Shown piece by piece: positions 354 through 14,327 of a stretch of 64,000 nt of DNA. The position numbers were made by a program, and so were the translations under genes. This DNA comes from an uncultured Spirochaetia bacterium. Its GTDB lineage: Bacteria > Spirochaetota > Spirochaetia > CAZBHR01. How positions within the stretch are numbered: the first letter of the stretch is position 1; each line of letters begins with the position of its first letter. Location of the stretch: NCBI GenBank assembly GCA_964492025.1, contig CAZBHR010000002.1, positions 106,568 through 170,567 of the forward strand, given 5' to 3'. A model generated the notes under the pieces. It saw nothing but the letters and a program-made list of their open reading frames with translations. It searched no databases and was not told the origin of the DNA.

Positions 354-986
354 ATGTTGGGGTTAATGAAGAATCATCTATATGCAGGTATGTATGGAAT
401 AAAAATAGCATTGGGCACTACCATTCTTCTTGCTGGTGCTGGAGTTGTGTTATTATCAGCTGGAGAAGGTTTACCGATGGATATTTTCTTTGCGTATTCG
501 GTTGTAATGCTTCCCTTTTTAGCTGTTTGCTCTATTAGCCCAGAAAGTGGAGCTAAGTGGAGTAGTTTTGAGTTGACCTTACCTATCTCAAAAAAAGATG
601 CCGTAGGTGCACAATATGTTATGTATTTTTGTTTCATGGTGGTTGGCTTACTGATAAGCTTTGTCTCTTTTGGAGTAAACGATCTTATTAACCCTCAAGT
701 AGTTTCTGTGCCTAAAATGATTTTTTCTTTTGTACTTTCCGTGCAAGAAGCCTTTATTATAGGGAGTGTGGGATTTCTACTTCTGATATTATTTGGACAA
801 GATAAAAGGGAAGTAATGTTTCTTTTAGCCTTCTTTATATCTGTTCCTTTTTCTATTGGATTCAGAATACTATTGGCTATATATGATATTTGGTATTTTC
901 CAATACTTATTGTGGTGAGTAGTGCTTTGTTATACATACTCTCTTATCTAATTTCTGTGGCTATATATAAGAAGAAAGATTTTTAA
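354..986 (+). CDS. ABC-2-type transporter permease, paralog 1 of 4
   Basis: 210 aa, hydrophobic with several predicted TM helices. N-terminus MLGLMKNHLY and C-terminus YKKKDF are shared with the three following ORFs. AGAGGAG ribosome-binding site just upstream. Confidence 0.55.
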   Translation: MLGLMKNHLYAGMYGIKIALGTTILLAGAGVVLLSAGEGLPMDIFFAYSVVMLPFLAVCSISPESGAKWSSFELTLPISKKDAVGAQYVMYFCFMVVGLLISFVSFGVNDLINPQVVSVPKMIFSFVLSVQEAFIIGSVGFLLLILFGQDKREVMFLLAFFISVPFSIGFRILLAIYDIWYFPILIVVSSALLYILSYLISVAIYKKKDF

Positions 987-998
987 AGGGAGGTTAAT

Positions 999-1664
999 AT
1001 GTTGGGGTTACTAAAGTATAATTATCATTCCTCATGGAGCTCTGTTCTTTTATCCTTTATACTGTACTTAACAGTATTATTTTTGGTTGTTATTATTCAG
1101 AGTTCTCTGATGTTTTCTCTTGCTGTATCACTGTCTTCTATGATGTTCTCCTTTTGCATATTTAGTACATCTGACCATGTAGATACCTCTACGTTATGGG
1201 CAAGTTTTGAGTTCTTACTTCCTATTGAAAAGAAAAAAATAATCCTAGCAAGGTATATTACTTTTCTTGTGTTTCTTCTGATGGGAGTTGTTTTAGGTGG
1301 CATTATTGTATGGTTACAGTCTGTTTTACAACCAGCACTACCTCTTCATACTCTCTTACTGGATATGTTCTTAGGTGTTGGATTTGGACTAGGATTTGGT
1401 GCAACTTTGATGGTAGAAACTTCTGCTTCAAAATCAGGTGGCAACCAAGGAATATCTGGATTGGTTTTTCTTGTAGCACCATTTTTGATACTCATCACTG
1501 TGGTGTGGGGAGTTGCAAAATTGTATGAGGTTTCCTTTATACAACTGTTCTTAGATAAGAGTATATATACTGTTGCTCTCTCTATATTTGTTCCTACAAA
1601 TATTCTTTTATGGCTTATTTCGTATCCTGTAAGTGTAAAACTTTACAAAACAAAGGAGTTTTAA
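999..1664 (+). CDS. ABC-2-type transporter permease, paralog 2 of 4
   Basis: 221 aa membrane protein, N-terminus MLGLLKYNYH, C-terminus YKTKEF. AGGGAGG ribosome-binding site upstream. Confidence 0.55.
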   Translation: MLGLLKYNYHSSWSSVLLSFILYLTVLFLVVIIQSSLMFSLAVSLSSMMFSFCIFSTSDHVDTSTLWASFEFLLPIEKKKIILARYITFLVFLLMGVVLGGIIVWLQSVLQPALPLHTLLLDMFLGVGFGLGFGATLMVETSASKSGGNQGISGLVFLVAPFLILITVVWGVAKLYEVSFIQLFLDKSIYTVALSIFVPTNILLWLISYPVSVKLYKTKEF

Positions 1665-2297
1665 ATGTTTGGTTTAATAAAGCATAATATCTATACTGGG
1701 GGCTTCGTTTTTTTTGTTTGGTTTGCACTATGCGCTGCTATTCTTTTTATAACAGGTATTGTGTCTAACCTAGCCAATTTTTCCATAGCTGCTTTTGGGT
1801 TCCTTGTCACTACTCCTATGCTGAGTACTGGAATGGTAAAGAAAGAGATACTCAGTCGTTGGAGTGTACAAGAATCGGTATTACCTATAAGAAAATATCA
1901 AGTTGTGACTACAAAATATATAGTACACTGCATATATTTAATTCCTTGCCTTATAGGAATCTTTGCTATTTTCTTTGTATTACCCTTGAGTAAAAGTGCT
2001 GGAGCTACTGTAGAGATAAGTGTTTTCGTATTTCTAGGAGTTTGTTTATCGTTATTATATGGAGCCCTCTATATACCATTTTTGTATATCTTAAAAGAGG
2101 CGAATCCAGACATTGTATCCCCCCTATGCTCTTTAATTGCAGCGGGACTTTTCGTTCTATCTATGAATATTTTTGATGGATCTTCTCTCTTTGAGGGTTT
2201 TAGTATGCGGGCTGTATATATCGCTCTGTTTATTGGACTTGTCTATGTAGCTTCAAATATACTTTCTTGGTATGTGTACAAGAAACGAGAGTTTTAG
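1665..2297 (+). CDS. ABC-2-type transporter permease, paralog 3 of 4
   Basis: 210 aa membrane protein, N-terminus MFGLIKHNIY, C-terminus YKKREF. ATG directly abuts the stop codon of paralog 2, with AAAGGAG upstream. Confidence 0.55.
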   Translation: MFGLIKHNIYTGGFVFFVWFALCAAILFITGIVSNLANFSIAAFGFLVTTPMLSTGMVKKEILSRWSVQESVLPIRKYQVVTTKYIVHCIYLIPCLIGIFAIFFVLPLSKSAGATVEISVFVFLGVCLSLLYGALYIPFLYILKEANPDIVSPLCSLIAAGLFVLSMNIFDGSSLFEGFSMRAVYIALFIGLVYVASNILSWYVYKKREF

Positions 2298-2363
2298 TTG
2301 TTCAAAAACATGGACGTAGTCCATGAAAAATTAATCGGCCATATTGAGGCAAAGGAGAACAAT

Positions 2364-2969
2364 ATGTTTGGTTTAATAAAAGATGTAATACATGCTCACA
2401 AATCGACAGTAATTATCTATGTCATAGTAGTAGTTCTTATCTCGCTCATTGCAATGTGGATAGAACGCTTTGATTTTCTAGACCTTTTTATTCCTGGGAT
2501 TCCCCCAGTTGCCTGTGTCTTGTTTCTTCCAGAACTCTATGGAAGAGAGACTCATTGGCATAATCAAAAAGCTACGGAAAAGCAGGTTGTTGGGTCTAAA
2601 TATGTGGTATTTCTTATGGTAATTGGGTTATCTTTTTTAGTATCATTACTGTTAACTATGTTTATTTCAGCCTCTGGCGAAAAAATAGTTGAATTTTTCA
2701 GAGCAGAATCTGCTTACATGGGGGTATCTCTTATTCTTGGAGCTACGTTCCTATTGTTGGCACACTTCTTGAATAAATATTCTCATCTCGTAATTATGCT
2801 AGTGAGTATGCTTGTATTGGTGGGTATCCTTGCGCTCATATTTGGTCTCTATAGCATTATATCATTCCCCCAGTCATCAGAAAAATTTATTTTTCTTGCT
2901 ATCAGCTGCGTGTTGTATATTATATCTTATTTTGTGTCAGTAGGTGTGTACAAGAAACGAGAGTTCTAG
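2364..2969 (+). CDS. ABC-2-type transporter permease, paralog 4 of 4
   Basis: The ORF track starts at 2298, but the ATG at 2364 is preceded by AAAGGAGA and gives N-terminus MFGLIKDVIH, matching the other paralogs. C-terminus YKKREF. Confidence 0.55.
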   Translation: MFGLIKDVIHAHKSTVIIYVIVVVLISLIAMWIERFDFLDLFIPGIPPVACVLFLPELYGRETHWHNQKATEKQVVGSKYVVFLMVIGLSFLVSLLLTMFISASGEKIVEFFRAESAYMGVSLILGATFLLLAHFLNKYSHLVIMLVSMLVLVGILALIFGLYSIISFPQSSEKFIFLAISCVLYIISYFVSVGVYKKREF

Positions 2970-2994
2970 AGAATTCTGCTACTGAACTTATAAA

Positions 2995-3026
2995 ACACCA
3001 CCCAAAGTAGGGTGGTGTTTCTTTAT
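2995..3026. terminator. Bidirectional intrinsic terminator between convergent genes
   Basis: Stem ACACCACCC (2995-3003) pairs with GGGTGGTGT (3010-3018) around loop AAAGTA. A-rich 5' flank and T-rich 3' flank (TTCTTTAT). Sits between permease paralog 4 (+) and the aminopeptidase gene (-). Confidence 0.5.
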
Positions 3027-3030
3027 AAAC

Positions 3031-4818
3031 TTATACTTCTGCAGTGGCCTCCGCAAGCCACTCCTGAACCGGTTCTGCTAAAAGGGGAGCCAGTTCTGCA
3101 TACACTCCAGCGTGGTAGTCATTGAGCCAATCTTTCTCCTCTGCGGTGAGGGCATCTGTATTAATCAGTTTTCGCTCAAAGGGTGTTATGGTAAGGGTTT
3201 CAAAACCGAGCCACTGGGCAAACTCTGTTGTTTCGCGTTTCTCTACAAGTACGAGATTTTCCAGTCGTATTCCATGTTTCCCTTCACGGTAAAGTCCTGG
3301 TTCATTGGAAAGGTACTGTCCAGCTTCCAGAGCAACATTAATTCCCTTTGGAGAGATACTCATAGGCCCTTCGTGTACATTCATGAAAAATCCTACTCCG
3401 TGTCCCGTTCCATGGCCGTAGTTCAATCCTACATCCCAGAGTGGTTTTCGTGCCAGTATATCAATCTGGTGTCCAAAGGTTCCTACGGGAAACTGGGCTG
3501 TTGCTAAGGCAATATGCCCTTTGAGTACTGCTGTGTAATCGGAAACCTGCTCCTCTGTGGGCTCTCCAATTAAGAGGGTTCTGGTAATATCGGTGGTTCC
3601 GCAGAGGTACTGTCCTCCTGAATCAAACACCATAAGCCCCTGTCCAGAAAGTGGTGCCGATAGCTCCTTTGATGCATGGTAGTGGTTAAGTACTCCATTC
3701 TCCTGATACCCCGCAATGGTAGCAAAGCTTTCATCAGTAAATCCCTTTTGTGCAGATCGGCACTCCTTAATTTTCTCCATGGTGTCCCACTCTGTAAGGG
3801 TACTTTTATCTTCAATAGAGTCAAACCAGTGTAGAAAGTTTGCCATTGCTACTCCATCAAGCTTATGTGCCTCTCTGAGTTGTGCTTTTTCGGTCTCTGT
3901 TTTTACTGCTTTTCGTGTAGTTATTGGGTGGGGTGTTATCTCCTTACCTACAACACTCTTCTGGAACTTTGTTATGAGTCCATAGGGTGCTGAGGTGGGG
4001 TCAATAATTACAGTTCCCTGAAGGGCTTCTACCTGACCATATACGCTATCGTAGGGGAGGAGTGTTACACTCTCTCCCAGTTCTGCTTGTAGCTCTTTAC
4101 TAAACGCTTCAATATGGGTGCAGAGAATTGCTTGCTTATTTGGGTTTCTAGATATTATCAAAAACCCCTCAAAAACAGGGTTGTACTGTTGCACAGTTCC
4201 TCGCAGGTTTAGGAGGTACCCAATCTCCGCAAGGTTTGTAGAAAGAAGGACATCCGATTTCCGCTCTTCCATATAGGTATACGCCCATGCGAGTCTCTCC
4301 TCTCGGGTCTCTCCTGTGTACGATGAATCAAGCGATACCACTTGCTCTTCTGGTGGGTTTGGTCGGTCTTCCCAGAGGGGAAGAAAGATGTTTTCCATTC
4401 CTTGTAAGGTTATACCTGCTCCTTCCAGCTCTTTTTGTAGGTCTAAAAATCCCTTGAATGAGATAGTCATACTATCAACACCAATAACAGATCCCTTCGG
4501 CATTTCTGCTTTCAGCCAATCTCCGTAGGAGAGTACTTCAGGAAGACCAAATTTATGAATTTCTACAGAAGTGCCTTCAACTTCACGGGCTGCTTGTACA
4601 TAGTATCTGCTGTCCACCCAAAGGTGTATTGCATCTTGGAGAACTACCACGGTTCCGGCAGATCCACTAAAACCAGTAATTCCCTGGCGTTCCATCCAGT
4701 GGGGTGGGAGATATTCGGTCTGATGAGGGTCTGTCCCTGTTATAATCCACCCGTCTATATTCTGCTTTGTAAGCTCCTCTTGAACACGGGAAATGCGGTT
4801 GTTTATGGTACTTTTCAT
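3031..4818 (-). CDS. Xaa-Pro aminopeptidase (M24B, aminopeptidase P family)
   Basis: 595 aa. C-terminal catalytic region with HGTGHGVGFFMNVHEGP and downstream acidic metal-ligand residues typical of M24B. AGGAG ribosome-binding site upstream of the ATG at 4818. Confidence 0.75.
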   Translation of the reverse strand: MKSTINNRISRVQEELTKQNIDGWIITGTDPHQTEYLPPHWMERQGITGFSGSAGTVVVLQDAIHLWVDSRYYVQAAREVEGTSVEIHKFGLPEVLSYGDWLKAEMPKGSVIGVDSMTISFKGFLDLQKELEGAGITLQGMENIFLPLWEDRPNPPEEQVVSLDSSYTGETREERLAWAYTYMEERKSDVLLSTNLAEIGYLLNLRGTVQQYNPVFEGFLIISRNPNKQAILCTHIEAFSKELQAELGESVTLLPYDSVYGQVEALQGTVIIDPTSAPYGLITKFQKSVVGKEITPHPITTRKAVKTETEKAQLREAHKLDGVAMANFLHWFDSIEDKSTLTEWDTMEKIKECRSAQKGFTDESFATIAGYQENGVLNHYHASKELSAPLSGQGLMVFDSGGQYLCGTTDITRTLLIGEPTEEQVSDYTAVLKGHIALATAQFPVGTFGHQIDILARKPLWDVGLNYGHGTGHGVGFFMNVHEGPMSISPKGINVALEAGQYLSNEPGLYREGKHGIRLENLVLVEKRETTEFAQWLGFETLTITPFERKLINTDALTAEEKDWLNDYHAGVYAELAPLLAEPVQEWLAEATAEV

Positions 4819-4946
4819 TCTCTCTACTCCTAAGGGGATTATATTACTCTATGCTAGCAAAAAACATAGAGTTTTTACACCCCTTATTCTCTCTCTATTG
4901 ATTTATTTTTTTATGTGTATTACTTTGTGTATAGGAGTGTGTATAT

Positions 4947-5141
4947 ATGAGAACAAATATCGTACTTAACGATGAATTAATACGAGAAGCCTTTCTCTAT
5001 GCTGGTACTATTAAAACAAAGAGAGAGTTGATTGAAGTTGCGTTGCAGGAGTATGTGGATAATTGTAAACGTAAAAAATTGAGTGATCTTAGAGGGGCGA
5101 TTCAGTTTTTAGATGATTACAATCACAAAGAGATGAGGTAG
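4947..5141 (+). CDS. vapB: Type II antitoxin, VapB-like
   Basis: 64-aa ORF (MRTNIVLNDELIREAF...) sits 4 nt upstream of a PIN-domain gene, the usual antitoxin-toxin arrangement. Confidence 0.6.
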   Translation: MRTNIVLNDELIREAFLYAGTIKTKRELIEVALQEYVDNCKRKKLSDLRGAIQFLDDYNHKEMR

Positions 5142-5145
5142 TCCG

Positions 5146-5565
5146 ATGTTTCTGGTGGATACCTCATTTTTTATTGACTACTTTAAAGGAACCGAAGGCT
5201 CGGAGTTTACTCAGTTTACACACCTTGTAGAGCAGGGAGTTCCCTGTGGAATTAATACATATATTTATCAAGAGTTACTCCAAGGAGCAAAAGACGAAAA
5301 GGAGTACGGTCTTCTTAAAAAGTATCTAAGCTCACTCCCTTTTTACCCTTTGAAGGATAATAAACAGTCTATTGAAGAGGCAGCCGCTCTTTACAGAAGG
5401 TGCCGGAAAAAGGGTGTTACCATAAGGAGCACTATAGACTGCCTTATTGTCCAAACAGCTTTAGAACATAATCTTGTGCTAGCTCATAATGACCGAGATT
5501 TTATTCGAATAGGAGAGGTTGTACCAGCACTGAAGCTCTTTTCTCCCGTAGCCTTTCTCTCCTGA
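5146..5565 (+). CDS. vapC: PIN-domain ribonuclease toxin, VapC-like
   Basis: 139 aa. N-terminus MFLVDTSFFIDYF carries the conserved N-terminal Asp of PIN domains. Tightly coupled to the upstream antitoxin ORF. Confidence 0.65.
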   Translation: MFLVDTSFFIDYFKGTEGSEFTQFTHLVEQGVPCGINTYIYQELLQGAKDEKEYGLLKKYLSSLPFYPLKDNKQSIEEAAALYRRCRKKGVTIRSTIDCLIVQTALEHNLVLAHNDRDFIRIGEVVPALKLFSPVAFLS

Positions 5566-5778
5566 TTCCTCCTCATTTGCACCTATAATCCTGCTTTTAC
5601 AGTTGCTTTTTGCATATTCCCTCGAAAAAGTGTTGCAACGGATATACCCTAGATAATAGAGGGAGATCATGTATAGAAAAGCTACTACCTACGGAAGTAC
5701 TTCTTTTTCTAAGGTCTTGTTGCTCTGTTCTTCCAACACTCTGGGGTGATCTAGTTGGACTCTCTAGGTATTTCTTAC

Positions 5779-5803
5779 AAAAAAAGGGGTTCCGAAGAAC
5801 CCC
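5779..5803 (-). terminator. Intrinsic terminator at the end of the nucleoside operon
   Basis: On the minus strand, stem GGGGTTC / GAACCCC (5786-5803) with a 4-nt loop is followed by a 7-nt U run (complement of the A run at 5779-5785). Lies 23 nt downstream of the phosphorylase stop. Confidence 0.6.
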
Positions 5804-5825
5804 GTGTATCACAAAGGAGAGATAC

Positions 5826-6656
5826 TTACCAAGCTTTGGTAATACCTCGTACTAGGTTAATAAACTGCTCTTTTACCATTGCTCCAACTTCGAGAACCTC
5901 CGCATGATTTAGGGGTTGATCCATAACACCCGCTGCCATATTGGTAATACATGATATTCCGAGTACTTTCATTCCACAGTGGTTTGCCGCAATTACTTCG
6001 GGTACTGTAGACATTCCCACTGCATCGGCACCCAGAATTTGGGCGAGTTTGACCTCTGCTGGGGTTTCATAGGTTGGGCCAGGAAACATCATATACACAC
6101 CCTCTTGGAGTGTGGTTCCTTGGCTCTCTGCAACCTGCTTAGCCATGTTCCGTAGATTTTCTGGGTACGCATACGTCATATCGGGGAACCGAGGGCCTAA
6201 TTCATCAAGATTGAGTCCCCGTAGGGGTGTGTCATCTACAAACTTAATATGGTCTCGAATAAGCATAAGGGTTCCTGGCTTATAGGTAGTGTTTGAGCCA
6301 CCAGCGGCGTTGGTAATAAGTACCTTATCCATTCCAAGCAGTTTCATTACAGGAATAGGGAAGGCAGCCTCTGCCATGGTGTACCCTTCGTAATAGTGAA
6401 AACGCCCCTGCATAACCATAACACTCTTTCCTTCAAGCTCTCCAATTACCAGCTGACCAGCATGATCGGCTACGGTGGATACTGGAAATCCCGGTATATC
6501 TTTGTATGGTATAATAAGAGGATTTTCCACCTCTTCTCCTAATACTCCTAAGCCTGATCCTAGGATCATTCCAATTGATGGGGTAGGAACCCCCGCTTCA
6601 GAAATCCTACTTCTTAAATAATCCGCTGCTCTGTTTAATACTTCCATTCTATTCAT
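5826..6656 (-). CDS. punA: Purine nucleoside phosphorylase (PNP/MTAP family)
   Basis: 276 aa containing GMSTVPEVIAANHCGMKVLGISCITNMAAG, the family signature. Last gene of the BMP nucleoside transporter operon. Confidence 0.7.
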   Translation of the reverse strand: MNRMEVLNRAADYLRSRISEAGVPTPSIGMILGSGLGVLGEEVENPLIIPYKDIPGFPVSTVADHAGQLVIGELEGKSVMVMQGRFHYYEGYTMAEAAFPIPVMKLLGMDKVLITNAAGGSNTTYKPGTLMLIRDHIKFVDDTPLRGLNLDELGPRFPDMTYAYPENLRNMAKQVAESQGTTLQEGVYMMFPGPTYETPAEVKLAQILGADAVGMSTVPEVIAANHCGMKVLGISCITNMAAGVMDQPLNHAEVLEVGAMVKEQFINLVRGITKAW

Positions 6657-6659
6657 TGT

Positions 6660-7610
6660 TTACTCCTGTCCTGGTATATATGGTTCTCCCACAGCCTTTG
6701 GAGCTCGGGATTGTTTTGAAAATAGCACAAGTGCTATAAGGGTTATTACGTAGGGAAAGGTTTTTAGGAACACCGGAGGAATCGCACCTAACTCTGGTAC
6801 TACTTGAGATACGTTTGCTAAAGTTGAGGCGAGTCCAAAAAAGAAGGTTGCCCCTAAAATCCCCAATGGCTTCCACTGTCCAAAAATCAAAGAGGCCAAA
6901 GCTAAGAATCCTAGCCCCGCAACGGTTCCGTTAAACTCTCCTGACTGTGTTACTAAAACTAAAGAACCCCCTAGTCCTGCAAGGGCTCCAGAGATGGTTA
7001 CTGCTAGGTATCGCATTTTGGGGACATGAATACCCGCTGACGCTGCTGCATGGGGATGTTCTCCACAGGATCGTAGCCTTAGCCCAAAGGATGTTTTATA
7101 GAGGAGCCACCAAGAGAACAGGAGAATCCCCAACACAATCCATGTGGTGTAATAGGTGTTTGTAAAGAAGAGGGGACCTATAAAAGGGATGGAACTCAAT
7201 ACCGGAATGTTCGTTCGAATAATTCCCATACGAATTGGAATATTTCCACTTCCCGTAATAGTTCCTGCCAAGTACATTGTGAGAGCTCCCGCAAGCATAT
7301 TAATCGCGGTTCCACTAATTACCTGATTTGCATTCAGGGTAATTGCAGCAAATGCATGGAGAAGGGAGAAGAGTGCCCCTGCTAATACTGCTACAATGAG
7401 CCCTACGTAGATAGCCATAGAGGATCCTAATGGCCCTTGTAAGTAGTAAATTGTTATGGCGGAAGCAAAAAACCCTACTACCATAAGTCCTTCTAGTCCA
7501 ATATTTACTACACCACTTCGCTCACTGTACAGTCCTCCAAGTGCAGTAATAAGAAGGATCATGGTATACGCAACAGCGTAAGGTGCTATTTGTGTGATAA
7601 TCGTAATCAT
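6660..7610 (-). CDS. Nucleoside ABC transporter permease
   Basis: 316 aa polytopic membrane protein, 4-nt overlap with the upstream permease, within the BMP/ATPase operon. Confidence 0.65.
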   Translation of the reverse strand: MITIITQIAPYAVAYTMILLITALGGLYSERSGVVNIGLEGLMVVGFFASAITIYYLQGPLGSSMAIYVGLIVAVLAGALFSLLHAFAAITLNANQVISGTAINMLAGALTMYLAGTITGSGNIPIRMGIIRTNIPVLSSIPFIGPLFFTNTYYTTWIVLGILLFSWWLLYKTSFGLRLRSCGEHPHAAASAGIHVPKMRYLAVTISGALAGLGGSLVLVTQSGEFNGTVAGLGFLALASLIFGQWKPLGILGATFFFGLASTLANVSQVVPELGAIPPVFLKTFPYVITLIALVLFSKQSRAPKAVGEPYIPGQE

Positions 7611-8695
7611 AGATTTTTCTCCTTTGACCCTTTGATTCTGCGTGCAATTTTTGTCCAGTACCGCTCAATAAGAAGACTAATAGCAGTAAAATAGATAATT
7701 GTAGCAATGATAGTATCTGAGATCTGAGTAGGGATATCTGTAATGGCATTCATCAAACCTTTCCCTGTGTGGAGGACTCCAAAGAATAGGGCTGCTGCCA
7801 GTACTCCAAAGGGATTTGTTGCTCCGAGAAGTGCTACAGCAATTCCATCAAACCCTTGGTTTGGAAGTACTCCAATCTGCATGCTTGTGGCAAAACCTGT
7901 ATAAAAGGTGAGTCCCCCAAGACCTGCAAGAGCTCCTGCAATGCCCATAGAAAGAACAATATTTCTCTCTACCTTAACACCGGCATATTCTGCAGCATCT
8001 CTGTTGTGTCCTACCGCTTTTAGCTCAAATCCTAGGGTTGTTTTCTCTAAAATAAACCAGATTAAGAATACCGCACCAATAGCTAAAAAAAGTCCGTAGT
8101 TAATGTATGACCCATTAAAGAGGTTCGTAAGCCAATCAGCCCGTAATGAGGCCTCTAGGGCAATTTTTTTACTTTCTGTCTCTAGGGTAGGTCCCTTGAG
8201 ATAGGATGGTACAAAGTAGTATACCACCCAGTAGGCTATCCAGTTCATCATAATAGTAGAAACTACCTCATGCACATTAAACTTTGCCTTAATGAGTCCT
8301 GGAATAAATCCCCATAGAGCTCCTGCTAGTGCAGCCGCTAAAATCATAGTGGGTAGGAGAATTGCTCTTGGGAGTGGCACCAGTAGGGCGACGGTGGTCG
8401 CAGCTAATCCTCCAGCAAGCATCTGACCAGCTGCTCCAATATTGAAGAGTCCCGTTCTAAATGCGTATGCTACGGAGAGTCCCGTAAAGATAAGGGTGGT
8501 TGCGGTGGCTAGGGAGTTTCCTATACGCTCAATGTTCATAAGGCCACCCTTAAATAGGTTAATATATCCTACAATAGGGTTTGCTCCTACCATAAGAATA
8601 AACACTGCTCCAACGAGAAGCCCTAATACCACAGATATAAGAGAGATAGCCAGGGGTCCTGGTTTTTCGAACCGTTTTTTTCCTAACTCTTTCAT
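7607..8695 (-). CDS. Nucleoside ABC transporter permease
   Basis: 362 aa polytopic membrane protein, 4-nt overlap with the ATPase gene. Confidence 0.65.
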   Translation of the reverse strand: MKELGKKRFEKPGPLAISLISVVLGLLVGAVFILMVGANPIVGYINLFKGGLMNIERIGNSLATATTLIFTGLSVAYAFRTGLFNIGAAGQMLAGGLAATTVALLVPLPRAILLPTMILAAALAGALWGFIPGLIKAKFNVHEVVSTIMMNWIAYWVVYYFVPSYLKGPTLETESKKIALEASLRADWLTNLFNGSYINYGLFLAIGAVFLIWFILEKTTLGFELKAVGHNRDAAEYAGVKVERNIVLSMGIAGALAGLGGLTFYTGFATSMQIGVLPNQGFDGIAVALLGATNPFGVLAAALFFGVLHTGKGLMNAITDIPTQISDTIIATIIYFTAISLLIERYWTKIARRIKGSKEKNL

Positions 8696-10212
8696 GGTTG
8701 CTCCTTTCTAATTCCTGTCATCATAAGACCAATAGCCTCTTCATTTGTTTCCGCTGTTGGAATGGTATTAATCAACTCGCCTTTACAGATTACTGCAATG
8801 TTGTCTGAGAGGTTGAACACCTCATCAAGCTCAAGAGAAACAAGAAGTACTGCACGTCCCTTATCTCGCTGCTCTACTAACCTTTTATGGATAAACTCAA
8901 TTGCCCCAACGTCTAAGCCTCGGGTTGGCTGTACTGCAATAAGGAGTTTGGGGTCTGAATCAATCTCCCTTCCAATAATAACCTTTTGCTGATTACCACC
9001 GGAGAGTGTTTTTGCGGGAGAGAGCTTTCCTTGTCCTGACCGTACATCAAACTCTTCAATAATAGTATCCGCATGTTCATAAATTGTTGAGGTGTTGAGA
9101 ATACCGCCCTTGGAGTAGGGGTGTTGGTAGTAAGATTTGAGTACCATGTTTTGAGCAACCGTATACTCTAATACCAGTCCATGCTTGTGTCGGTCCTCTG
9201 GAATAAGTCCCATGCCAGACTCACTTCTTTCACGAACCGAGAGATTTGTAATATCTATATCTCCCACATGAATAACTCCACTGGTGGTTTTTCTCAATCC
9301 AGCTATTGCTTCAATGAGCTCGGTTTGACCGTTTCCATCAACACCGGCTAATCCTACAATTTCACCTGCTCGCACCTGAAGAGAGAAATCCTTAACCACA
9401 TCCACCTTTCTCTCATCGGTTACCGTAAGATTTTGAATGTTTAGAATAACCTCCTGAGGTTGTGCTGGCGTTTTATCTACTTTGAAGGAGACCTCGCGTC
9501 CTACCATCATTGCGGCCATCTCAGCCTCTGTTGAGTTAGCTACCTCTACAGTTCCAATATATTTACCACGACGAATTACAGTGCAGAGGTCTGCGACCTC
9601 TTTTATCTCCTTCAGCTTGTGAGTAATAAGGATAATTGACTTGCCATCCTCCGTAAGCTTTCTCATAATTGCAATAAGTTCATGGATTTCCTGAGGGGTA
9701 AGTACTGCAGTAGGTTCGTCAAAAATTAAGATATCTGCATCCCGATACAACATCTTAAGTATCTCTACCCGTTGTTGCATTCCTACGGAGATATCCTCAA
9801 TTTTGGCGTAGGGATCTATTTGCAATCCATAGGCCTCTGATAGGGCTGCTACCTTTTCTGCGGTACTCTTTATATCAAGAACAAATTTCCCTTCCATTCC
9901 AAGAATAATATTTTCTGTTACTGTAAAGCTTGTAACCAGTTTAAAGTGCTGGTGTACCATTCCAATTCCTAGGGCAGTAGCAACGTTGGGATTAGTAATA
10001 GATACCTCTTCTCCACGAATTTTAATGGTTCCCGAAGTTGGATGATACAGTCCAAAAAGAATAGACATAAGGGTAGATTTTCCTGCCCCATTCTCACCTA
10101 GGAGTGCTAGAATTTCTCCCTTTTTTAGTTGGATAGTAATATCATCATTAGCTACAATTCCAGGAAACTCTTTGCGGATATGTAACATCTCTACAACATA
10201 ATCGTTTGTCAA
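8692..10212 (-). CDS. Nucleoside ABC transporter ATP-binding protein (two fused nucleotide-binding domains)
   Basis: Two Walker A motifs (GENGAGKST and GVDGNGQT) and two signature motifs ([18 protein letters not shown]). Start reassigned to TTG at 10212, which has AGGAGG 6 nt upstream and gives N-terminus (M)TNDYVVEMLHIRKEFPG. The ORF-track start at 10269 has no ribosome-binding site. Confidence 0.75.
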   Translation of the reverse strand: MTNDYVVEMLHIRKEFPGIVANDDITIQLKKGEILALLGENGAGKSTLMSILFGLYHPTSGTIKIRGEEVSITNPNVATALGIGMVHQHFKLVTSFTVTENIILGMEGKFVLDIKSTAEKVAALSEAYGLQIDPYAKIEDISVGMQQRVEILKMLYRDADILIFDEPTAVLTPQEIHELIAIMRKLTEDGKSIILITHKLKEIKEVADLCTVIRRGKYIGTVEVANSTEAEMAAMMVGREVSFKVDKTPAQPQEVILNIQNLTVTDERKVDVVKDFSLQVRAGEIVGLAGVDGNGQTELIEAIAGLRKTTSGVIHVGDIDITNLSVRERSESGMGLIPEDRHKHGLVLEYTVAQNMVLKSYYQHPYSKGGILNTSTIYEHADTIIEEFDVRSGQGKLSPAKTLSGGNQQKVIIGREIDSDPKLLIAVQPTRGLDVGAIEFIHKRLVEQRDKGRAVLLVSLELDEVFNLSDNIAVICKGELINTIPTAETNEEAIGLMMTGIRKEQP

Positions 10213-10233
10213 ATTAGACCTCCTAAAATAGAG

Positions 10234-10260
10234 AAGGGGCAAGTACAATACCTGCCCCTT
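10234..10260 (-). terminator. Intercistronic stem-loop after the BMP binding-protein gene (possible partial terminator)
   Basis: AAGGGGCA (10234-10241) pairs with TGCCCCTT (10253-10260) around an 11-nt loop. Located between the binding-protein stop (10294) and the ATPase start (10212). Confidence 0.4.
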
Positions 10261-10293
10261 CAAATACAATAAACCAAAAGTTCAGGACACTCT

Positions 10294-11367
10294 TTATTTT
10301 ATAAGATTTCCCTTTTCGCTAGAGACTTTCACACTTCCATTCGCAATGAGTTGAAAGAGTTCTGCAGTTTTTTTCTCAACCTCAGGATCTAGGTTAGGGT
10401 TCTCTTCTGGGAGTCCAACTCCATTGTTTGAAGCATCAAAAGTAAGGACCTGTCCTCCAGGAAATGTTCCATTGAGTTCTGCTTCAATCATATCGTAAGC
10501 TGCAACATCAATACCTTTTACCGCAGAGGTAAGGATAATAGAGTCATTGTTGTTATACAGTCCATCAGCATACTGATCAACATCTACTCCAATAACCCAT
10601 ACTTCGTTACCCTTAGATGCTCGAGCTTTTGCCTCATTAATAACACCAATACCTACACCACCAGCAGCCGCAAAAATCGCATTAACTCCTCGGTCATACA
10701 TGGTTGCAGCAAGCTGTCCTCCAGCTGCTACATTGTCAAAGGACCCTTGGTATACTACATTCTGAGCTTCAATAGTAGCGTTTGTTCCTTCGTTTTCATT
10801 TGCGTAGGCAACACCCTGTTGGAATCCCCAGTTAAACTTCTGTACTGCAGGAATCTCCATTCCTCCAATAAAACCAAGTTTTCCCTCTTGGAGCTGAAGT
10901 GCTGCTGCGTATCCTGCAAGGAATCCAGACTCCTCTTCAGCAAAGAAAATAGCTACAGTGTTATTTTGTACATTAGGAACGTAATCTCCTGCATGAGGGT
11001 TTCCGTCAAGAATAACAAACTTTGCATCTTTATACTTGTCTTGTGCTATGTTTACGGCTGTTTCAAACTTAAATCCAGGAGTGATGATAAATCTATACCC
11101 TCCGTCGTAGAGGTTGCCGATCTCCTGAAGATACTCAGCTTCGGTAGTTCCGTTTGGTTTGAGATATCGAGTGGTAATATCGAGATCTTTCTCAGCCTGT
11201 AGGATACCTTCCCAGGTACCTTGGTTGAAAGATTTATCATCGATAGTTCCCGCATCGGTAACCATACCTACTTTAAGTAGGTCTCCACTGTCTTCATCTC
11301 CAGAACAACTTACAAGAAGTCCTCCTACAAGAAGAAGTGCTGTTAATGCTAATAATATTTTTTTCAT
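10294..11367 (-). CDS. BMP-family (basic membrane protein / PnrA-like) nucleoside-binding lipoprotein
   Basis: 357 aa with signal peptide and lipobox LLVSC. First gene of an operon with two permeases, a tandem-domain ATPase and a nucleoside phosphorylase. GGAGGC ribosome-binding site. Confidence 0.8.
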   Translation of the reverse strand: MKKILLALTALLLVGGLLVSCSGDEDSGDLLKVGMVTDAGTIDDKSFNQGTWEGILQAEKDLDITTRYLKPNGTTEAEYLQEIGNLYDGGYRFIITPGFKFETAVNIAQDKYKDAKFVILDGNPHAGDYVPNVQNNTVAIFFAEEESGFLAGYAAALQLQEGKLGFIGGMEIPAVQKFNWGFQQGVAYANENEGTNATIEAQNVVYQGSFDNVAAGGQLAATMYDRGVNAIFAAAGGVGIGVINEAKARASKGNEVWVIGVDVDQYADGLYNNNDSIILTSAVKGIDVAAYDMIEAELNGTFPGGQVLTFDASNNGVGLPEENPNLDPEVEKKTAELFQLIANGSVKVSSEKGNLIK

Positions 11368-11658
11368 AACTTTATAGCCTCCAGTAAAATTTCAACTCTT
11401 ATTATATCCTAAGGGACAGCAAATAGCAACAAAAAAGGGGAGGCCCTTAGGAATTTCTTCCGATTCTTATACTCCTTTTTGTAAGGGGATTCTTTTCTGA
11501 ATTCATCTGTATTTTTATAAAAAAATTTTTTTCTAGATAAAAATATCCTAAATCTTGTTCAGCCTATTGACATTTGTTCAAAGTTTCACTAATTTATTGA
11601 CATAAAGGTGAAATAAATCACGAAGAATGAAGATGATTACCATAAGAGGAGCAAAAAC

Positions 11659-14223
11659 ATGGATCAAAAAGAACGATTAGATGCAACTATTAGTACTGCA
11701 AAAAAGGCACAAATTGCCTATAGTACTTTTAGTCAGGAGAAGGTGAATGAAATTTTCCGTACCAGTGCACTTGCTGCAAACAACGCAAGAATATCGCTTG
11801 CTAAAATGGCAGTAAAAGAGACGGGAATGGGTATTGTTGAGGATAAGGTAATTAAGAATCACTTTGCTTCAGAGTACATCTATAATAAGTATAAAGATAC
11901 TCCTACCTGTGGTGAAATTGAAAGAGATAACGCCTTTGGTATTATCAAAGTAGCAGAGCCTATTGGAGTTATTGGAGGAGTTGTTCCTACAACAAACCCA
12001 ACTTCAACCGCAATTTTTAAAGCTCTTTTAGCACTTAAAACTCGAAACGCTATCATTTTTTCTCCTCACCCTAGAGCGGTAAAGAGTACTATTGAAGCGG
12101 CAAAAATTGTAAAAGAGGCAGCCGAAGCAGCGGGTGCACCAAAGGGACTTATTGGCTGGATTGATGAGCCATCTGTTGCAGCAAGTCAGCAGCTTATGGG
12201 TCACCCTGATATTAGTATTATTCTTGCTACCGGTGGTCCTGGTATGGTACGTGCTGCTTACAGCTCTGGAAAACCAGCCCTTGGAGTTGGTGCAGGTAAT
12301 ACTCCAGCGGTTATTGATGAAACTGCGGATATTAAAGAGGCTGTAAGTTCTATTCTTATGAGTAAAACCTTTGACAACGGAATGATCTGTGCTTCAGAGC
12401 AGTCTGTTGTGGTATGTGATAAGGTGTATAAAGAGGTAAAAGCGGAGTTTGCCTTACGAGGAGCTCATCTTCTTTCTAAGACAGAACAACCAAAGGTTGC
12501 AAAGATTCTTTTAAAAGATGGCCATTTAAATGGGGCTATTGTTGGTCAGCCTGCATATAAGATTGCAGAGATGGCTGGGGTTACCGTACCTGTAGAAGCG
12601 AAGGTTCTTATTGGTGAGGTTTCAAAAATTGGTGTAGACGAGCCTTTCTCCTTTGAGAAGTTAAGTCCTGTATTAGCAATGTACAAAGCAAAGGATTACA
12701 AAGACGCCTTTGATAAAGCTGCCGCCCTTGTAGAGTTTGGTGGATTAGGACATACCTCTGTTCTTTATACCGATAGAAGTAATACCGATAGGGTAGACGA
12801 GTTTGGATCAAGAATGAAAGCTGGACGAACTCTTATTAATATGCCCTCAAGCCAGGGAGCAATTGGAGATCTCTTTAACTTTAAGTTAGCCCCATCACTT
12901 ACTCTTGGGTGTGGAAGCTGGGGAGGAAACTCCGTAAGTCAGAACGTTGGACCTATGGAATTATTAAATATCAAAACAGTAGCAGAGAGGAGAGAGAATA
13001 TGTTGTGGTTTCGAGTACCTCCAAAGGTATATTTTAAACGAGGTTCTTTGGAGCTTGCACTGGGAGACCTTGCTGATAAAAAGAGAGCTTTTATTGTAAC
13101 CGATCAATTTCTTTACGAAAATGGATACTGTGACGGAGTTACTAAAACATTAAGTAGTATGGGAATACTTTATGATATCTTCCCAGAAGTAAAACCAGAT
13201 CCAACCCTTTCTACTGCATACCGTGGAGTTGAGGCGATGAAAAACGCAAACCCCGATGTTATCATTAGTATTGGTGGTGGTTCTCCAATGGACTGTGCAA
13301 AAATTATGTGGCTTCTGTATGAACACCCAGAGGTGAAGTTTGAGGATCTAGCTCTTCGATTTATGGATATTCGAAAGAGAGTATACACCTTCCCAGAGCT
13401 TGGAGGAAAGGCTTCTTTTGTTGCAATTCCAACTACCAGTGGTACAGGATCAGAAGTTACCCCATTTGCGGTTATTACTGATGACTCAACAGGTATGAAA
13501 TATCCTATTGCGGACTACCAGCTTACCCCTCATATGGCAATTTGTGACCCTAACCTTGTTATGGCAATGCCAAAAGCTCTTACTGCTCACTCAGGGCTTG
13601 ATGTACTTACTCACGCACTGGAAGCTCTTGTTTCTGTACTTGCTACAGAGTTTACCAACTCTATGGCTCTTGAGGCAATTCGACTTACCTTTAAATATCT
13701 TCCTGCTTCATATACAGAGGGAGATCAGAAGGCAAGAGAGAAAATGCACTACGCATCAACCCTTGCGGGAATGGCTTTTGCAAACGCATTCCTAGGTGTG
13801 TGTCACTCTATGGCTCACAAGCTTGGAGCTTTCCATCACCTGCCACATGGGTTATCAAATGCACTTCTCTTAACAGAGGTTATTCGATACAACGCAGATA
13901 ATGCACCAACAAAGCAGGGAGCTTTCTCTCAGTACAAGCACCCAGAAGCGTCTATGCGATACGCACGAGTTGCTGATCTTTTAGGACTTGGTGGTAAAAC
14001 TGAAGAGGAGAAGGTTGAGAAGCTTATTGCTAAGGTTGAAGAACTTAAGGCTATTTGTGAAATCCCAGAAAGTATTTCTGCAGCAGGGATTGATGAAAAG
14101 TCTTTTATGAAGAACCTTGATGAGATGTGTGATGAGGCTTTTGATGATCAGTGTACCAGTGCGAACCCACGGTTCCCATTGATCTCTGAGATTAAGGATC
14201 TTTATCTAAAAGCTTTTAAATAG
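11659..14223 (+). CDS. adhE: Bifunctional acetaldehyde-CoA / alcohol dehydrogenase
   Basis: 854 aa. N-terminal aldehyde dehydrogenase region (...ISLAKMAVKETGMGIVEDKVIKNHFASEYIYNKYKD...) and C-terminal iron-type alcohol dehydrogenase domain. AGGAG ribosome-binding site. Confidence 0.9.
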   Translation: MDQKERLDATISTAKKAQIAYSTFSQEKVNEIFRTSALAANNARISLAKMAVKETGMGIVEDKVIKNHFASEYIYNKYKDTPTCGEIERDNAFGIIKVAEPIGVIGGVVPTTNPTSTAIFKALLALKTRNAIIFSPHPRAVKSTIEAAKIVKEAAEAAGAPKGLIGWIDEPSVAASQQLMGHPDISIILATGGPGMVRAAYSSGKPALGVGAGNTPAVIDETADIKEAVSSILMSKTFDNGMICASEQSVVVCDKVYKEVKAEFALRGAHLLSKTEQPKVAKILLKDGHLNGAIVGQPAYKIAEMAGVTVPVEAKVLIGEVSKIGVDEPFSFEKLSPVLAMYKAKDYKDAFDKAAALVEFGGLGHTSVLYTDRSNTDRVDEFGSRMKAGRTLINMPSSQGAIGDLFNFKLAPSLTLGCGSWGGNSVSQNVGPMELLNIKTVAERRENMLWFRVPPKVYFKRGSLELALGDLADKKRAFIVTDQFLYENGYCDGVTKTLSSMGILYDIFPEVKPDPTLSTAYRGVEAMKNANPDVIISIGGGSPMDCAKIMWLLYEHPEVKFEDLALRFMDIRKRVYTFPELGGKASFVAIPTTSGTGSEVTPFAVITDDSTGMKYPIADYQLTPHMAICDPNLVMAMPKALTAHSGLDVLTHALEALVSVLATEFTNSMALEAIRLTFKYLPASYTEGDQKAREKMHYASTLAGMAFANAFLGVCHSMAHKLGAFHHLPHGLSNALLLTEVIRYNADNAPTKQGAFSQYKHPEASMRYARVADLLGLGGKTEEEKVEKLIAKVEELKAICEIPESISAAGIDEKSFMKNLDEMCDEAFDDQCTSANPRFPLISEIKDLYLKAFK

Positions 14224-14300: not shown

Positions 14301-14327
14301 ATGTGTATGCAGGAATAGTGGTTATAT

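What the first reader, a model, noticed from the sequence alone, without database searches (positions are those of the whole stretch)
4947..5565. VapBC toxin-antitoxin pair wedged between housekeeping genes on the opposite strand
A 64-aa antitoxin-like ORF and a 139-aa PIN-domain ORF (N-terminal LVDTS acidic motif) lie on the plus strand, 4 nt apart. They sit between an aminopeptidase gene and the nucleoside salvage operon, both on the minus strand. The opposite orientation and the roughly 130-nt and 260-nt non-coding flanks are consistent with a horizontally acquired addiction or stress module. No flanking direct repeat was found by eye.
Basis: partly seen in the sequence, partly recalled or inferred. 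Interest (0 to 1): 0.4.

Follow-up and report, generated by a model that had tools for sequence, protein, structure and literature searches.

The report
Ordinary VapBC toxin-antitoxin in a swap-prone slot
This is an intact but ordinary VapBC toxin-antitoxin gene pair, sitting in a gap between two housekeeping genes where related bacteria carry nothing or other toxin/defence genes, and it was recently exchanged between diverged lineages.

Summary
A 64-aa ORF (4947-5141) and a 139-aa ORF (5146-5565) lie 4 nt apart on the + strand, between minus-strand pepP (M24 aminopeptidase) and the purine-nucleoside-phosphorylase/Bmp-ABC operon.

- ORF1 is a PF09957 VapB antitoxin.
- ORF2 passes the NCBIfam VapC equivalog cut-off. 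It keeps D5/E43/D98/D116/D118, and its model fits M. tuberculosis VapC11 and VapC15 (TM 0.86).
- Three GTGTAT boxes at 12-nt phase overlap the promoter and ribosome-binding site. They are conserved in three homologous cassettes and are a likely VapB operator.

Horizontal turnover is supported.
- One relative has PNP and pepP adjacent, with a 172-nt gap.
- Another carries a PDC-S01 ATPase in the slot.
- Another carries MNT, a decayed HEPN, a vapB remnant and RelB beside pepP.
- Against a sister lineage, vapB/vapC dS is 0/0.02, while pepP and PNP reach about 1.0.

GC content is not atypical, and no integrase, flanking repeats or attC-like structure were found. The likely route is homologous recombination through the flanks.

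Verdict: a new member of a well-known kind, of low interest. The tRNA target is inferred only.

The parts
4898..4903 (+). -35-like hexamer TTGATT of the vapBC promoter (17-nt spacer to the -10)
   Evidence: TTGA is invariant at this position in four homologous cassettes (window, L003, L097, L098). Nucleotide homology to the L003 cassette begins exactly here. The strict consensus scan did not call a promoter.
4915..4944 (+). Three GTGTAT boxes at exact 12-nt phase (4915, 4927, 4939); candidate VapB operator. The -10-like TACTTT (4921-4926) lies in spacer 1 and the SD AGGAG (4933-4937) in spacer 2.
   Evidence: This is the only match in the 64 kb, with 0 in 100 shuffles. A periodic 7-mer arose in 1 of 20,000 shuffles of the intergenic region. 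The same three-box layout is conserved upstream of vapB in L003, L097 and L098. Protein binding is inferred.
4947..5141 (+). vapB antitoxin, 64 aa (N-terminal PF09957 domain, ribbon-helix-helix in the VapB11 crystal structure; C-terminal toxin-binding tail ending in R64)
   Evidence: PF09957 E 3e-15, covering the whole model. There is a weak full-length match to VapB11 of 6a7v. The C-terminal motif LRG-I-F---Y--K-MR is invariant in 5 homologues. dN/dS is 0.08 against L003.
5146..5565 (+). vapC toxin, 139 aa, PIN-domain endoribonuclease; its SD GAGG lies at 5135-5138 inside the end of vapB
   Evidence: NF047959 scores 134.8 bits against a cut-off of 80, and PF01850 gives E 1e-13. D5, E43, D98, D116 and D118 are invariant. 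The AF2 model has pLDDT 93 and matches 6a7v/4chg at TM 0.86, rmsd 1.7 A, 31% identity. dN/dS is 0.14.
5566..5785 (.). 220-nt non-coding spacer between vapC and the PNP terminator; function unknown. It lies inside the recently exchanged tract but outside the minimal cassette shared with L003.
   Evidence: No Pfam hit for its ORFs. No Rfam family above threshold. No unusual fold (z -0.28). It is 94-99% identical to L001, with an 11-mismatch patch at 5577-5613.
5786..5803 (-). Intrinsic terminator of the PNP/nucleoside-uptake operon (GGGGTTCTTCGGAACCCC followed by T7)
   Evidence: Terminator scan. A hairpin plus T-run follows the PNP stop in L096 and L085 as well; blastn matches the window's hairpin region to L096 (86% over 29 nt) but found no similarity in the L085 intergenic.
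4796..5849 (.). Low-divergence tract shared with sister lineage L001/L002 (98.4% identical, 0 mismatches over 4796-5382); the inferred recent recombination tract, ending 22-24 nt inside pepP and PNP
   Evidence: the 587-nt exact run is the longest in about 14 kb; the next is 194. dS values are.
3031..4818 (-). Left flank: pepP-type M24 Xaa-Pro aminopeptidase (595 aa), transcribed divergently from vapBC
   Evidence: Pfam Creatinase_N, Creatinase_N_2, Peptidase_M24 and Peptidase_M24_C.
5826..6656 (-). Right flank: purine nucleoside phosphorylase (276 aa), last gene of the Bmp/ABC nucleoside operon, convergent with vapC
   Evidence: NF006054 scores 380 bits against a cut-off of 218.

Best explanation
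The locus is a functional chromosomal type II toxin-antitoxin module of the VapBC family, in an uncultured bacterium that is probably a member of Spirochaetota.

How it most likely works:
- vapB and vapC are co-transcribed from their own promoter: -35 TTGATT, 17-nt spacer, -10 TACTTT.
- VapC is a PIN-domain, Mg2+/Mn2+-dependent endoribonuclease. Its acidic pocket is D5/E43/D98/D116.
- By analogy with its closest solved relatives, M. tuberculosis VapC11 and VapC15, it most likely arrests translation by cutting the anticodon loop of one or a few tRNAs. This step is inferred.
- VapB most likely dimerises through its N-terminal domain (PF09957; a ribbon-helix-helix in the VapB11 structure).
- Its C-terminal tail (LRG-I-F---Y--K-MR, ending in R64) most likely wraps VapC and blocks the metal site. 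This step is inferred.
- The VapB or VapBC complex most likely binds the three phased GTGTAT boxes. These cover the -10, the transcription start and the ribosome-binding site, so the operon would repress itself. This step is inferred.

Genomic context:
- The module is accessory cargo in a variable slot between the PNP terminator and the pepP promoter.
- It has no mobility genes of its own.
- It most likely moves between related lineages by homologous recombination through the conserved flanking genes, and it did so recently.
For: Shown directly:
- HMM membership above curated cut-offs.
- Invariant catalytic residues in 30 homologues.
- Sequence and fold match to VapC11 (6a7v) and VapC15 (4chg): E 4e-15, TM 0.86, rmsd 1.7 A.
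- R94, which PMC6265470 shows to be needed for tRNA binding in VapC11, aligns with an Arg here.
- Antitoxin-first bicistron with a 4-nt gap and an SD for each gene.
- Purifying selection on both genes: dN/dS 0.08 and 0.14.
- A GTGTAT x3 operator-like array that is unique in the window and conserved in cassettes whose VapC is 54-72% identical.

Evidence that the module is accessory and exchanged:
- An empty site in L085/L094/L095.
- The same slot holds an AAA_14/DUF4143 ATPase in L084/L096. This is PADLOC PDC-S01, E 4e-158.
- L086 carries MNT, a decayed HEPN, a vapB 3' remnant and RelB divergent from pepP.
- A 72%-identical cassette sits elsewhere, next to tRNA-His.
- Against L001, vapB dS is 0 and vapC dS is 0.02. 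pepP is 1.02, PNP is 0.97, and seven other shared genes range from 0.06 to 0.5.
- There is a 587-nt exact match where the next longest in about 14 kb is 194 nt.

Against: - No experiment supports activity, toxicity, neutralisation, DNA binding or the target.
- Identity to VapC11 and VapC15 is only 31%, so the specific tRNA target is a guess.
- The strict sigma-70 scan called no promoter, and the window's -10 matches only 3 of 6 positions.
- GC and GC3 are not atypical.
- No integrase, transposase, flanking repeats or attC-like hairpin were found, so the transfer route is inferred only from the identity profile.
- The vapB remnant in L086 suggests the slot may have been occupied for a long time. 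If so, 'acquired' may mean allele replacement rather than first insertion.
- All relatives are metagenome contigs, so the lineages are defined only by sequence divergence.
Confidence: 0.88

Rival explanations
1. The module is ancestral at this position and vertically inherited. The empty and differently filled sites in relatives are later losses or replacements, and there was no recent acquisition.
For: L086, the most distant relative with a recognisable pepP (59% identity), carries a vapB 3' remnant in the same orientation beside pepP: LSDLRGSIQFFDNYDYKSMR, 70% identical to VapB 45-64, E 5e-7. Composition is host-like.
Against: Vertical descent predicts cassette dS similar to the flanks. Observed dS is 0 for vapB and 0.02 for vapC, against 1.02 (pepP) and 0.97 (PNP). 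The transitions are abrupt, 22-24 nt inside each flanking gene. Long occupancy of the slot and recent allele exchange can both be true, so this rival fails only as a full explanation.
Confidence: 0.2
2. The module's main role is anti-phage defence by abortive infection, not plasmid-style addiction or a stress response. The slot would then be a small defence hotspot.
For: The same slot holds PADLOC candidate defence genes in relatives: PDC-S01 at E 4e-158 in L084, and an MNT matching PDC-S09 at E 1e-10 in L086. Rapid turnover and a recent sweep across lineages fit defence-gene dynamics.
Against: Neither VapB nor VapC matches any PADLOC model. No phage or prophage genes lie nearby in the window, as far as the neighbours were scanned. 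No relative was found in phage records. The evidence is guilt by association only.
Confidence: 0.25
3. The pair is a decaying, non-functional remnant.
For: TA loci in this slot do decay. L086 shows a HEPN gene with in-frame stops and a truncated vapB without vapC.
Against: Here both ORFs are full length, all catalytic and tail residues are intact, dN/dS is 0.08-0.14, and the promoter/operator layout is conserved.
Confidence: 0.04
4. The near-identity of the cassette between lineages is an artefact of metagenome assembly: chimeric contigs joined through a shared repeat.
For: All the sequences compared are metagenome contigs. The two lineages form a mosaic, with dS from 0.06 to 1.0 across genes.
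Against: The same joins occur in independent assemblies of each lineage. L001 (NCBI) and L002 (Logan) represent the sister lineage. L087-L090, from four records, represent the window lineage. Even a chimera would require diverged genomes to share the same cassette.
Confidence: 0.05

Closest known systems
M. tuberculosis VapBC11 (Rv1560/Rv1561; PDB 6a7v) and VapBC15 (Rv2009/Rv2010; PDB 4chg)
   Same: - They are the best sequence and fold matches: E 4e-15 and 2e-14, TM 0.86, rmsd 1.7 A.
- The acidic residues are equivalent (D5, E43/44, D98, D116), as is the tRNA-binding R94.
- The partner is a short VapB with the same N-terminal domain (ribbon-helix-helix in VapB11) and a C-terminal Arg-bearing tail (PMC6265470).
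- The gene order is the same, with the antitoxin first.
   Different: - VapC identity is only 31%.
- The VapB match is marginal by sequence (E 0.19).
- The host phylum differs.
- The tRNA-Leu(CAG) target shown for VapC11/15/32 (PMC5175351) is not established here.
- VapB has F54 where the conserved W54 of VapB11 would fall. That equivalence is not aligned, only inferred.
NCBIfam NF047959 'type II toxin-antitoxin system VapC family toxin' paired with Pfam PF09957 VapB
   Same: VapC scores above the curated equivalog cut-off (134.8 against 80 bits), and VapB covers the full PF09957 model. There are hundreds of 50-60%-identical homologues in metagenomes, including Treponema, Nitrospirota and Syntrophorhabdaceae.
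   Different: Nothing substantive. The window protein has a 6-8 residue C-terminal extension, shared only with its 72%-identical relative P0002.
Enterobacterial/Leptospira VapC (tRNA-fMet-specific; NF047863) and FitAB/VapBC2 of Rickettsia
   Same: They share the PIN fold (TM 0.68-0.73) and the general type II logic of an antitoxin with a DNA-binding domain repressing its own promoter.
   Different: NF047863 scores 24 bits against a cut-off of 140, so the window protein is not a member of that subfamily. An initiator-tRNA target should not be assumed.
Chromosomal hotspots for accessory and defence genes flanked by core genes (general phenomenon; from my own knowledge, no paper read here)
   Same: A fixed slot between two conserved genes is empty or holds different TA/defence cargo in related lineages. 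There are no mobility genes, and the signature of exchange runs through the flanks.
   Different: This is a very small slot holding one cassette. It has been sampled in only about five metagenomic lineages.

Membership tests
VapC / PIN-domain toxin | PIN-domain HMM match above the curated threshold | tested here: met
   PF01850 scores 52.3 bits against a cut-off of 23.6. NF047959 scores 134.8 bits against a cut-off of 80.
VapC / PIN-domain toxin | Conserved acidic residues that form the metal-binding active site | tested here: met
   D5, E43, D98, D116 and D118 are invariant in 30 homologues. They align to the VapC11 and VapC15 active-site residues (residues named in PMC6265470).
VapC / PIN-domain toxin | PIN alpha/beta/alpha fold | tested here: met
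   The AF2 model has pLDDT 93.1. Foldseek top hits are 6a7v and 4chg at TM 0.86; 43 PDB chains scored E<=0.001, and those listed are nearly all VapC or other PIN-domain proteins. This is a predicted structure, not a solved one.
VapC / PIN-domain toxin | Mg2+/Mn2+-dependent site-specific endoribonuclease activity on tRNA or rRNA | not testable with these tools
   Inferred from homology only. The target is unknown.
Type II toxin-antitoxin module (VapBC) | Bicistronic operon, antitoxin gene first, with small or no intergenic gap | tested here: met
   vapB is at 4947-5141 and vapC at 5146-5565, with a 4-nt gap. The SD GAGG for vapC lies inside the vapB 3' end. The same arrangement is seen in L001, L003, L097 and L098.
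Type II toxin-antitoxin module (VapBC) | Antitoxin with an N-terminal DNA-binding domain and a C-terminal toxin-binding tail | tested here: met
   PF09957 VapB_antitoxin covers residues 1-48. The C-terminal motif LRG-I-F---Y--K-MR is invariant in 5 sequences. Contact with VapC is inferred from VapB11 Arg62 (PMC6265470).
Type II toxin-antitoxin module (VapBC) | Autoregulation through operator repeats that overlap the promoter | tested here: inconclusive
   The sequence evidence is strong. GTGTAT x3 at 12-nt phase overlaps the -10 and the SD, is unique in 64 kb and is conserved in 4 cassettes. Binding and repression were not tested.
Type II toxin-antitoxin module (VapBC) | Toxin inhibits growth and the cognate antitoxin neutralises it | not testable with these tools
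   This needs expression experiments.
tRNA-fMet-specific VapC (NF047863, Leptospira/enteric type) | Equivalog HMM score above the cut-off | tested here: not met
   24.3 bits against a cut-off of 140.
M. tuberculosis VapC11/15/32 clade (tRNA-Leu-CAG anticodon-loop nuclease) | Phylogenetic grouping with VapC11/15/32 and cleavage of tRNA-Leu(CAG) | tested here: inconclusive
   VapC11 and VapC15 are the only PDB sequence hits and the best fold hits. However, identity is 31%, no tree was built and no cleavage data exist.
Self-mobile element (IS/transposon, integron cassette, integrative island) | Recombinase gene, terminal or target-site repeats, or an attC-like hairpin | tested here: not met
   There is no recombinase among the genes from 354 to 16130. 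Only short repeats of chance quality were found. The downstream spacer folds no better than shuffles, z -0.28. No tRNA gene is present in the window.
Catalogued anti-phage defence system (PADLOC-DB v2) | Match to a PADLOC model | tested here: not met
   VapB and VapC have no match. By contrast, the ATPase occupying the slot in L084 matches PDC-S01 at E 4e-158.

The most novel reading that the evidence does not exclude
The gap between the PNP terminator and the pepP promoter may be a recombination-driven micro-hotspot in an uncultured Spirochaetota clade. In it, toxin-antitoxin and candidate anti-phage genes would replace one another: VapBC, a PDC-S01 ATPase, MNT-HEPN and RelB. On this reading the VapBC allele acts as an abortive-infection defence, and it recently swept across lineages whose flanking genes are saturated at synonymous sites. 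That would make it a natural example of selection spreading a TA cassette by flank-mediated gene conversion, without any mobile-element machinery.
Probability: 0.2. Interest if true: 0.45.

Novelty: new member of a known kind. Interest (0 to 1): 0.2.

Why it matters
On its own it matters little. VapBC is the most abundant type II toxin-antitoxin family, and this copy fits the family on every feature that could be tested.

Three points have modest value:
- A specific, testable operator model for the PF09957-type VapB: three GTGTAT boxes at 12-nt phase over the -10 and the SD, conserved across cassettes whose VapC is 54-72% identical.
- A clean small example of a core-gene-flanked slot whose cargo differs between related lineages. 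It is empty in one, holds VapBC in two and a PDC-S01 ATPase in another; a further relative has a TA graveyard beside pepP, though its PNP side was not seen.
- A clear signature of recent exchange: cassette dS of 0-0.02 against about 1 in the adjacent genes, with no mobility genes. This bears on how TA modules spread on chromosomes.

Tried and rejected
- **Genome-contig scan with pepP.** It returned only relatives of 41% identity or less, mostly Saprospiraceae. These were useless for synteny, and no species-level representative of this organism was found by this scan of the genome collection.
- **Exact-pattern scans for the cassette.** Scans of metagenome contigs and viral contigs gave 0 hits, so there is no evidence for or against other contexts in those collections.
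- **Phage and plasmid records.** There was no VapC relative in phage records. Plasmid relatives were at most 39% identical over 80% or more of the query.
- **Rfam.** Nothing scored above any family's threshold in the window or the locus. One sub-threshold hit overlies the PNP terminator (Atu_C8, 23.8 against 50 bits) and was dismissed.
- **attC-like or structured element in the spacer downstream of vapC (window 5560-5830 folded).** Rejected: the fold z-score is -0.28.
- **Flanking direct or inverted repeats as insertion scars.** Only short matches of 72-100% identity and chance quality were found.
- **GC and GC3 as a sign of foreign origin.** Rejected. vapB is low in GC (z -1.7), but so are several neighbouring native genes. 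vapC and both GC3 values are typical.
- **Insertion boundaries from upstream alignments.** I aligned the pepP-upstream regions of five lineages and found no conserved non-coding sequence. The exact insertion point cannot be defined.
- **Strict sigma-70 scan.** It called no promoter. The promoter proposed here rests on conservation across cassettes instead.
- **Literature search for the sample and assembly accessions.** It returned nothing. The environment of origin is unknown.
- **Pfam scan of the small ORFs in 5479-5855.** No hits.
Full report
**1. Observation**

- A 64-aa ORF runs from ATG 4947 to TAG 5141.
- A 139-aa ORF runs from ATG 5146 to TGA 5565 and begins MFLVDTS. The two ORFs are 4 nt apart on the + strand.
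- To the left, 128 nt of non-coding DNA precede the start of a minus-strand 595-aa M24 Xaa-Pro aminopeptidase (3031-4818). It carries Creatinase_N, Creatinase_N_2, Peptidase_M24 and Peptidase_M24_C domains.
- To the right, 260 nt separate vapC from the stop of a minus-strand purine nucleoside phosphorylase (5826-6656). It matches NF006054 at 380 bits.
- The phosphorylase is the last gene of an operon that also encodes two BPD_transp_2 permeases, an ABC ATPase and a Bmp/PnrA-type binding protein.
- A clean intrinsic terminator for that operon lies at 5803-5786 on the minus strand.

**2. Identity of the two genes**

ORF1 matches Pfam PF09957 (VapB_antitoxin) over the whole model at E 3e-15.

ORF2:
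- It matches PF01850 (PIN) at E 1e-13.
- It matches the NCBIfam equivalog NF047959 (type II toxin-antitoxin system VapC family toxin) at 134.8 bits, against a cut-off of 80.
- The tRNA-fMet-specific Leptospira/enteric model NF047863 scores only 24 bits against a cut-off of 140, so ORF2 is not of that subtype.
- Its only sequence relatives in the PDB are M. tuberculosis VapC11 (6a7v, E 4e-15) and VapC15 (4chg, E 2e-14).
- In an alignment of 30 homologues, D5, E43, D98, D116 and D118 are invariant. In the HMMER alignments they sit opposite the VapC11 residues that PMC6265470 names as active-site residues (Asp5, Glu44, Asp98, Asp116).
- R94 sits opposite the Arg94 that the same paper shows is needed for tRNA binding.
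- An AlphaFold2 model built on that alignment has mean pLDDT 93.1. It superposes on 6a7v and 4chg with TM 0.86 and rmsd 1.7 A at 31% identity. The next matches are other VapC/FitB PIN toxins.

VapB:
- It aligns weakly but end to end with VapB11 (E 0.19).
- Its C-terminal motif LRG-I-F---Y--K-MR, ending in R64, is invariant in five relatives.
- In VapB11 a conserved C-terminal Arg inserts into the VapC active site (PMC6265470). The same role for R64 is an inference.

Against a homologous cassette with 72% VapC identity (L003), dN/dS is 0.08 for vapB and 0.14 for vapC. Both genes are therefore maintained by selection.

**3. Regulatory anatomy**

- Immediately upstream of vapB there are three exact GTGTAT boxes, at 4915, 4927 and 4939, which is a 12-nt phase.
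- The pattern occurs once in the 64-kb window and never in 100 shuffles.
- A periodic 7-mer of this kind arose in 1 of 20,000 shuffles of the intergenic region.
- The same three-box array is present upstream of vapB in three other cassettes whose VapC is 54-72% identical: L003, L097 and L098.
- In all four, a TTGA-containing -35 lies 17 nt upstream of a -10-like hexamer. That hexamer occupies the first inter-box spacer: TACTTT in the window, TACTAT in L003, TATAAT in L097.
- In all four, the Shine-Dalgarno sequence occupies the second spacer, and the start codon follows the third box.
- Nucleotide homology between the window and L003 starts exactly at the -35 (4898) and ends near the vapC stop (5547).
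- The minimal conserved unit is therefore promoter/operator, vapB and vapC, about 670 nt.

I read the boxes as the VapB/VapBC operator for autorepression. That is the normal behaviour of type II modules, but binding was not tested. The generic sigma-70 scan called no promoter.

**4. Is it horizontally acquired?**

Composition does not say so. vapB has GC 0.349 and vapC 0.407, against a gene mean of 0.402 (sd 0.032). Both GC3 values lie within 1 sd.

Comparative evidence does. Protein searches with pepP and PNP found only a handful of related lineages, all of them metagenome contigs. Their states at this position are as follows.

| Lineage | Contigs | pepP identity to window | What lies between PNP and pepP |
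|---|---|---|---|
| (a) window lineage | L087-L090 | 100% | vapBC |
| (b) sister lineage | L001, L002 | 78% | vapBC in the same place |
| (c) | L085, L094, L095 | 65% | nothing: a 172-nt gap with only a terminator, though the AdhE-Bmp-ABC-PNP synteny is kept |
| (d) | L084 + L096 (overlap at 98.5%) | 68% | a 397-aa AAA_14/DUF4143 ATPase, in the same orientation as vapBC; matches PADLOC candidate defence gene PDC-S01 at E 4e-158 |
| (e) | L086 | 59% | divergent from pepP: an MNT nucleotidyltransferase (PDC-S09, E 1e-10), a HEPN gene broken by stops, then RelB (PNP side not seen) |

In lineage (e) the broken HEPN gene is fused in frame to the last 20 codons of a vapB. That fragment reads LSDLRGSIQFFDNYDYKSMR and is 70% identical to VapB 45-64 (E 5e-7). 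No vapC is present.

In addition, the 72% cassette in L003 lies in an unrelated context, 340 nt from a tRNA-His gene. So the pair is not universal at this position, and the slot is a small hotspot for TA/defence cargo.

**5. Recent exchange**

- Between the window and sister lineage L001 there is not one mismatch from 4796 to 5382. That 587-nt run is the longest exact match in about 14 kb of shared sequence; the next longest is 194 nt.
- vapBC as a whole carries 3 mismatches.
- The adjacent 196 nt of pepP carry 37 mismatches, and the adjacent 151 nt of PNP carry 27.
- Synonymous divergence is 0 for vapB and 0.02 for vapC. It is 1.02 for pepP, 0.97 for PNP, and 0.06-0.5 for seven other shared genes.
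- The low-divergence tract (4796-5849, 98.4% identical) ends 22-24 nt inside each flanking gene.
- The same joins are seen in independent NCBI and Logan assemblies of both lineages. An assembly artefact is therefore unlikely.

The simplest reading is a recent recombination event that carried the whole island between lineages through homology in the flanking genes. No recombinase, terminal repeats, attC-like hairpin or tRNA gene accompanies the module in the window. The vapB remnant in L086 shows that the slot may have held this family for a long time. 'Acquired' may therefore mean allele replacement rather than first arrival.

**6. Mechanism (shown versus inferred)**

Shown:
- family membership;
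- an intact catalytic set;
- the predicted PIN fold;
- operon structure;
- purifying selection;
- a conserved operator-like array;
- variable occupancy of the slot;
- near-zero dS against diverged flanks.

Inferred from the family:
- VapC is a metal-dependent endoribonuclease that blocks translation.
- VapB neutralises it by inserting its C-terminal tail into the active site.
- VapB/VapBC represses the promoter, and loss of the labile antitoxin frees the toxin.

Inferred more weakly: the target is a tRNA anticodon loop, possibly tRNA-Leu. This rests on the finding that VapC11, VapC15 and VapC32 cut tRNA-Leu(CAG) and that VapC phylogeny predicts targets (PMC5175351). At 31% identity I give it about 0.4.

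The biological role is open. It could be addiction or stabilisation of the slot, a stress response, or abortive-infection defence. Candidate defence genes in the same slot in relatives hint at defence. However, VapB and VapC match no PADLOC model.

**7. Host**

The nearest named relatives are:
- for PNP: Sediminispirochaeta, Sphaerochaeta and unclassified Spirochaetota/Spirochaetales, at 62-63%;
- for VapC: a Treponema sp. MAG, at 54%;
- for pepP: hits that reach only 42-43% and include Spirochaetota and Bacteroidota.

The window is chromosomal. It encodes MetH, a membrane pyrophosphatase, AdhE and ABC transporters. It most likely comes from an uncultured Spirochaetota lineage. The environment could not be traced.

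**8. Verdict**

This is an ordinary, intact VapBC module, a new member of a very well-known family. It sits in a core-gene-flanked slot with variable cargo and was recently exchanged between lineages. Interest is low. The conserved three-box operator and the sharp recombination signature are tidy details rather than surprises.

Noticed in passing
L086:385-1253 (minus strand), beside pepP at L086:1396-3408: This looks like a toxin-antitoxin graveyard. There is an MNT nucleotidyltransferase (PDC-S09-like) and a HEPN gene interrupted by in-frame stops. The HEPN 3' end is fused to the last 20 codons of a vapB of the same family as the window's. No vapC is present, and a RelB antitoxin gene follows at the contig end.
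   Followed up: partly
L084:507-1700 and L096:1886-2017 (contigs overlap at 98.5%): In a lineage with 68% pepP identity, the PNP-pepP slot holds a 397-aa AAA_14/DUF4143 ATPase instead of vapBC. The ATPase matches the PADLOC candidate defence gene PDC-S01 (E 4e-158).
   Followed up: partly
window 3031-4818 (pepP) and 5826-6656 (PNP) versus L001: The two genes flanking the island have the highest synonymous divergence of all shared genes, dS about 1.0 against 0.06-0.5. pepP is a mosaic: 97-98% nt identity at 3200-3400 but 45-53%, with indels, at 4000-4300. This suggests repeated recombination with divergent donors around the slot.
   Followed up: partly
window 354-2969: The window has four tandem ABC2_membrane_5 genes (210, 221, 210 and 223 aa). 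The sister lineage L001 has only two. The 986-2277 stretch has no counterpart in L001, so there was a local tandem expansion or deletion.
   Followed up: no
window 4846-4872: An inverted repeat, ACTCTATG-N11-CATAGAGT followed by T5, lies between the divergent vapBC and pepP promoters. It is outside the cassette shared with L003. It could be a pepP regulatory site or a weak hairpin; this was not tested.
   Followed up: no
window 5577-5613: There are eleven substitutions against L001 within 37 nt, immediately after the vapC stop, inside an otherwise 99-100% identical tract. The cause of this small hypervariable patch is unknown.
   Followed up: partly
window 5669-5749 (+): A 26-codon ORF (MYRKATTYGSTSFSKVLLLCSSNTLG) is preceded by GAGGGAG and lies in the unexplained 220-nt spacer downstream of vapC. 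It has no database support and may be chance.
   Followed up: no
L097:206-2345: A contig carrying a VapC that is 58% identical has three consecutive pairs of a small ORF followed by a PIN-domain gene in tandem (the third PIN hit is weak). This is a cluster of PIN-toxin modules.
   Followed up: no
L003:96-168 and 554-1167: The closest divergent cassette (VapC 72% identical) lies about 340 nt from a tRNA-His gene and next to a Big_2-domain protein gene. This genomic context is entirely different from the window's.
   Followed up: partly
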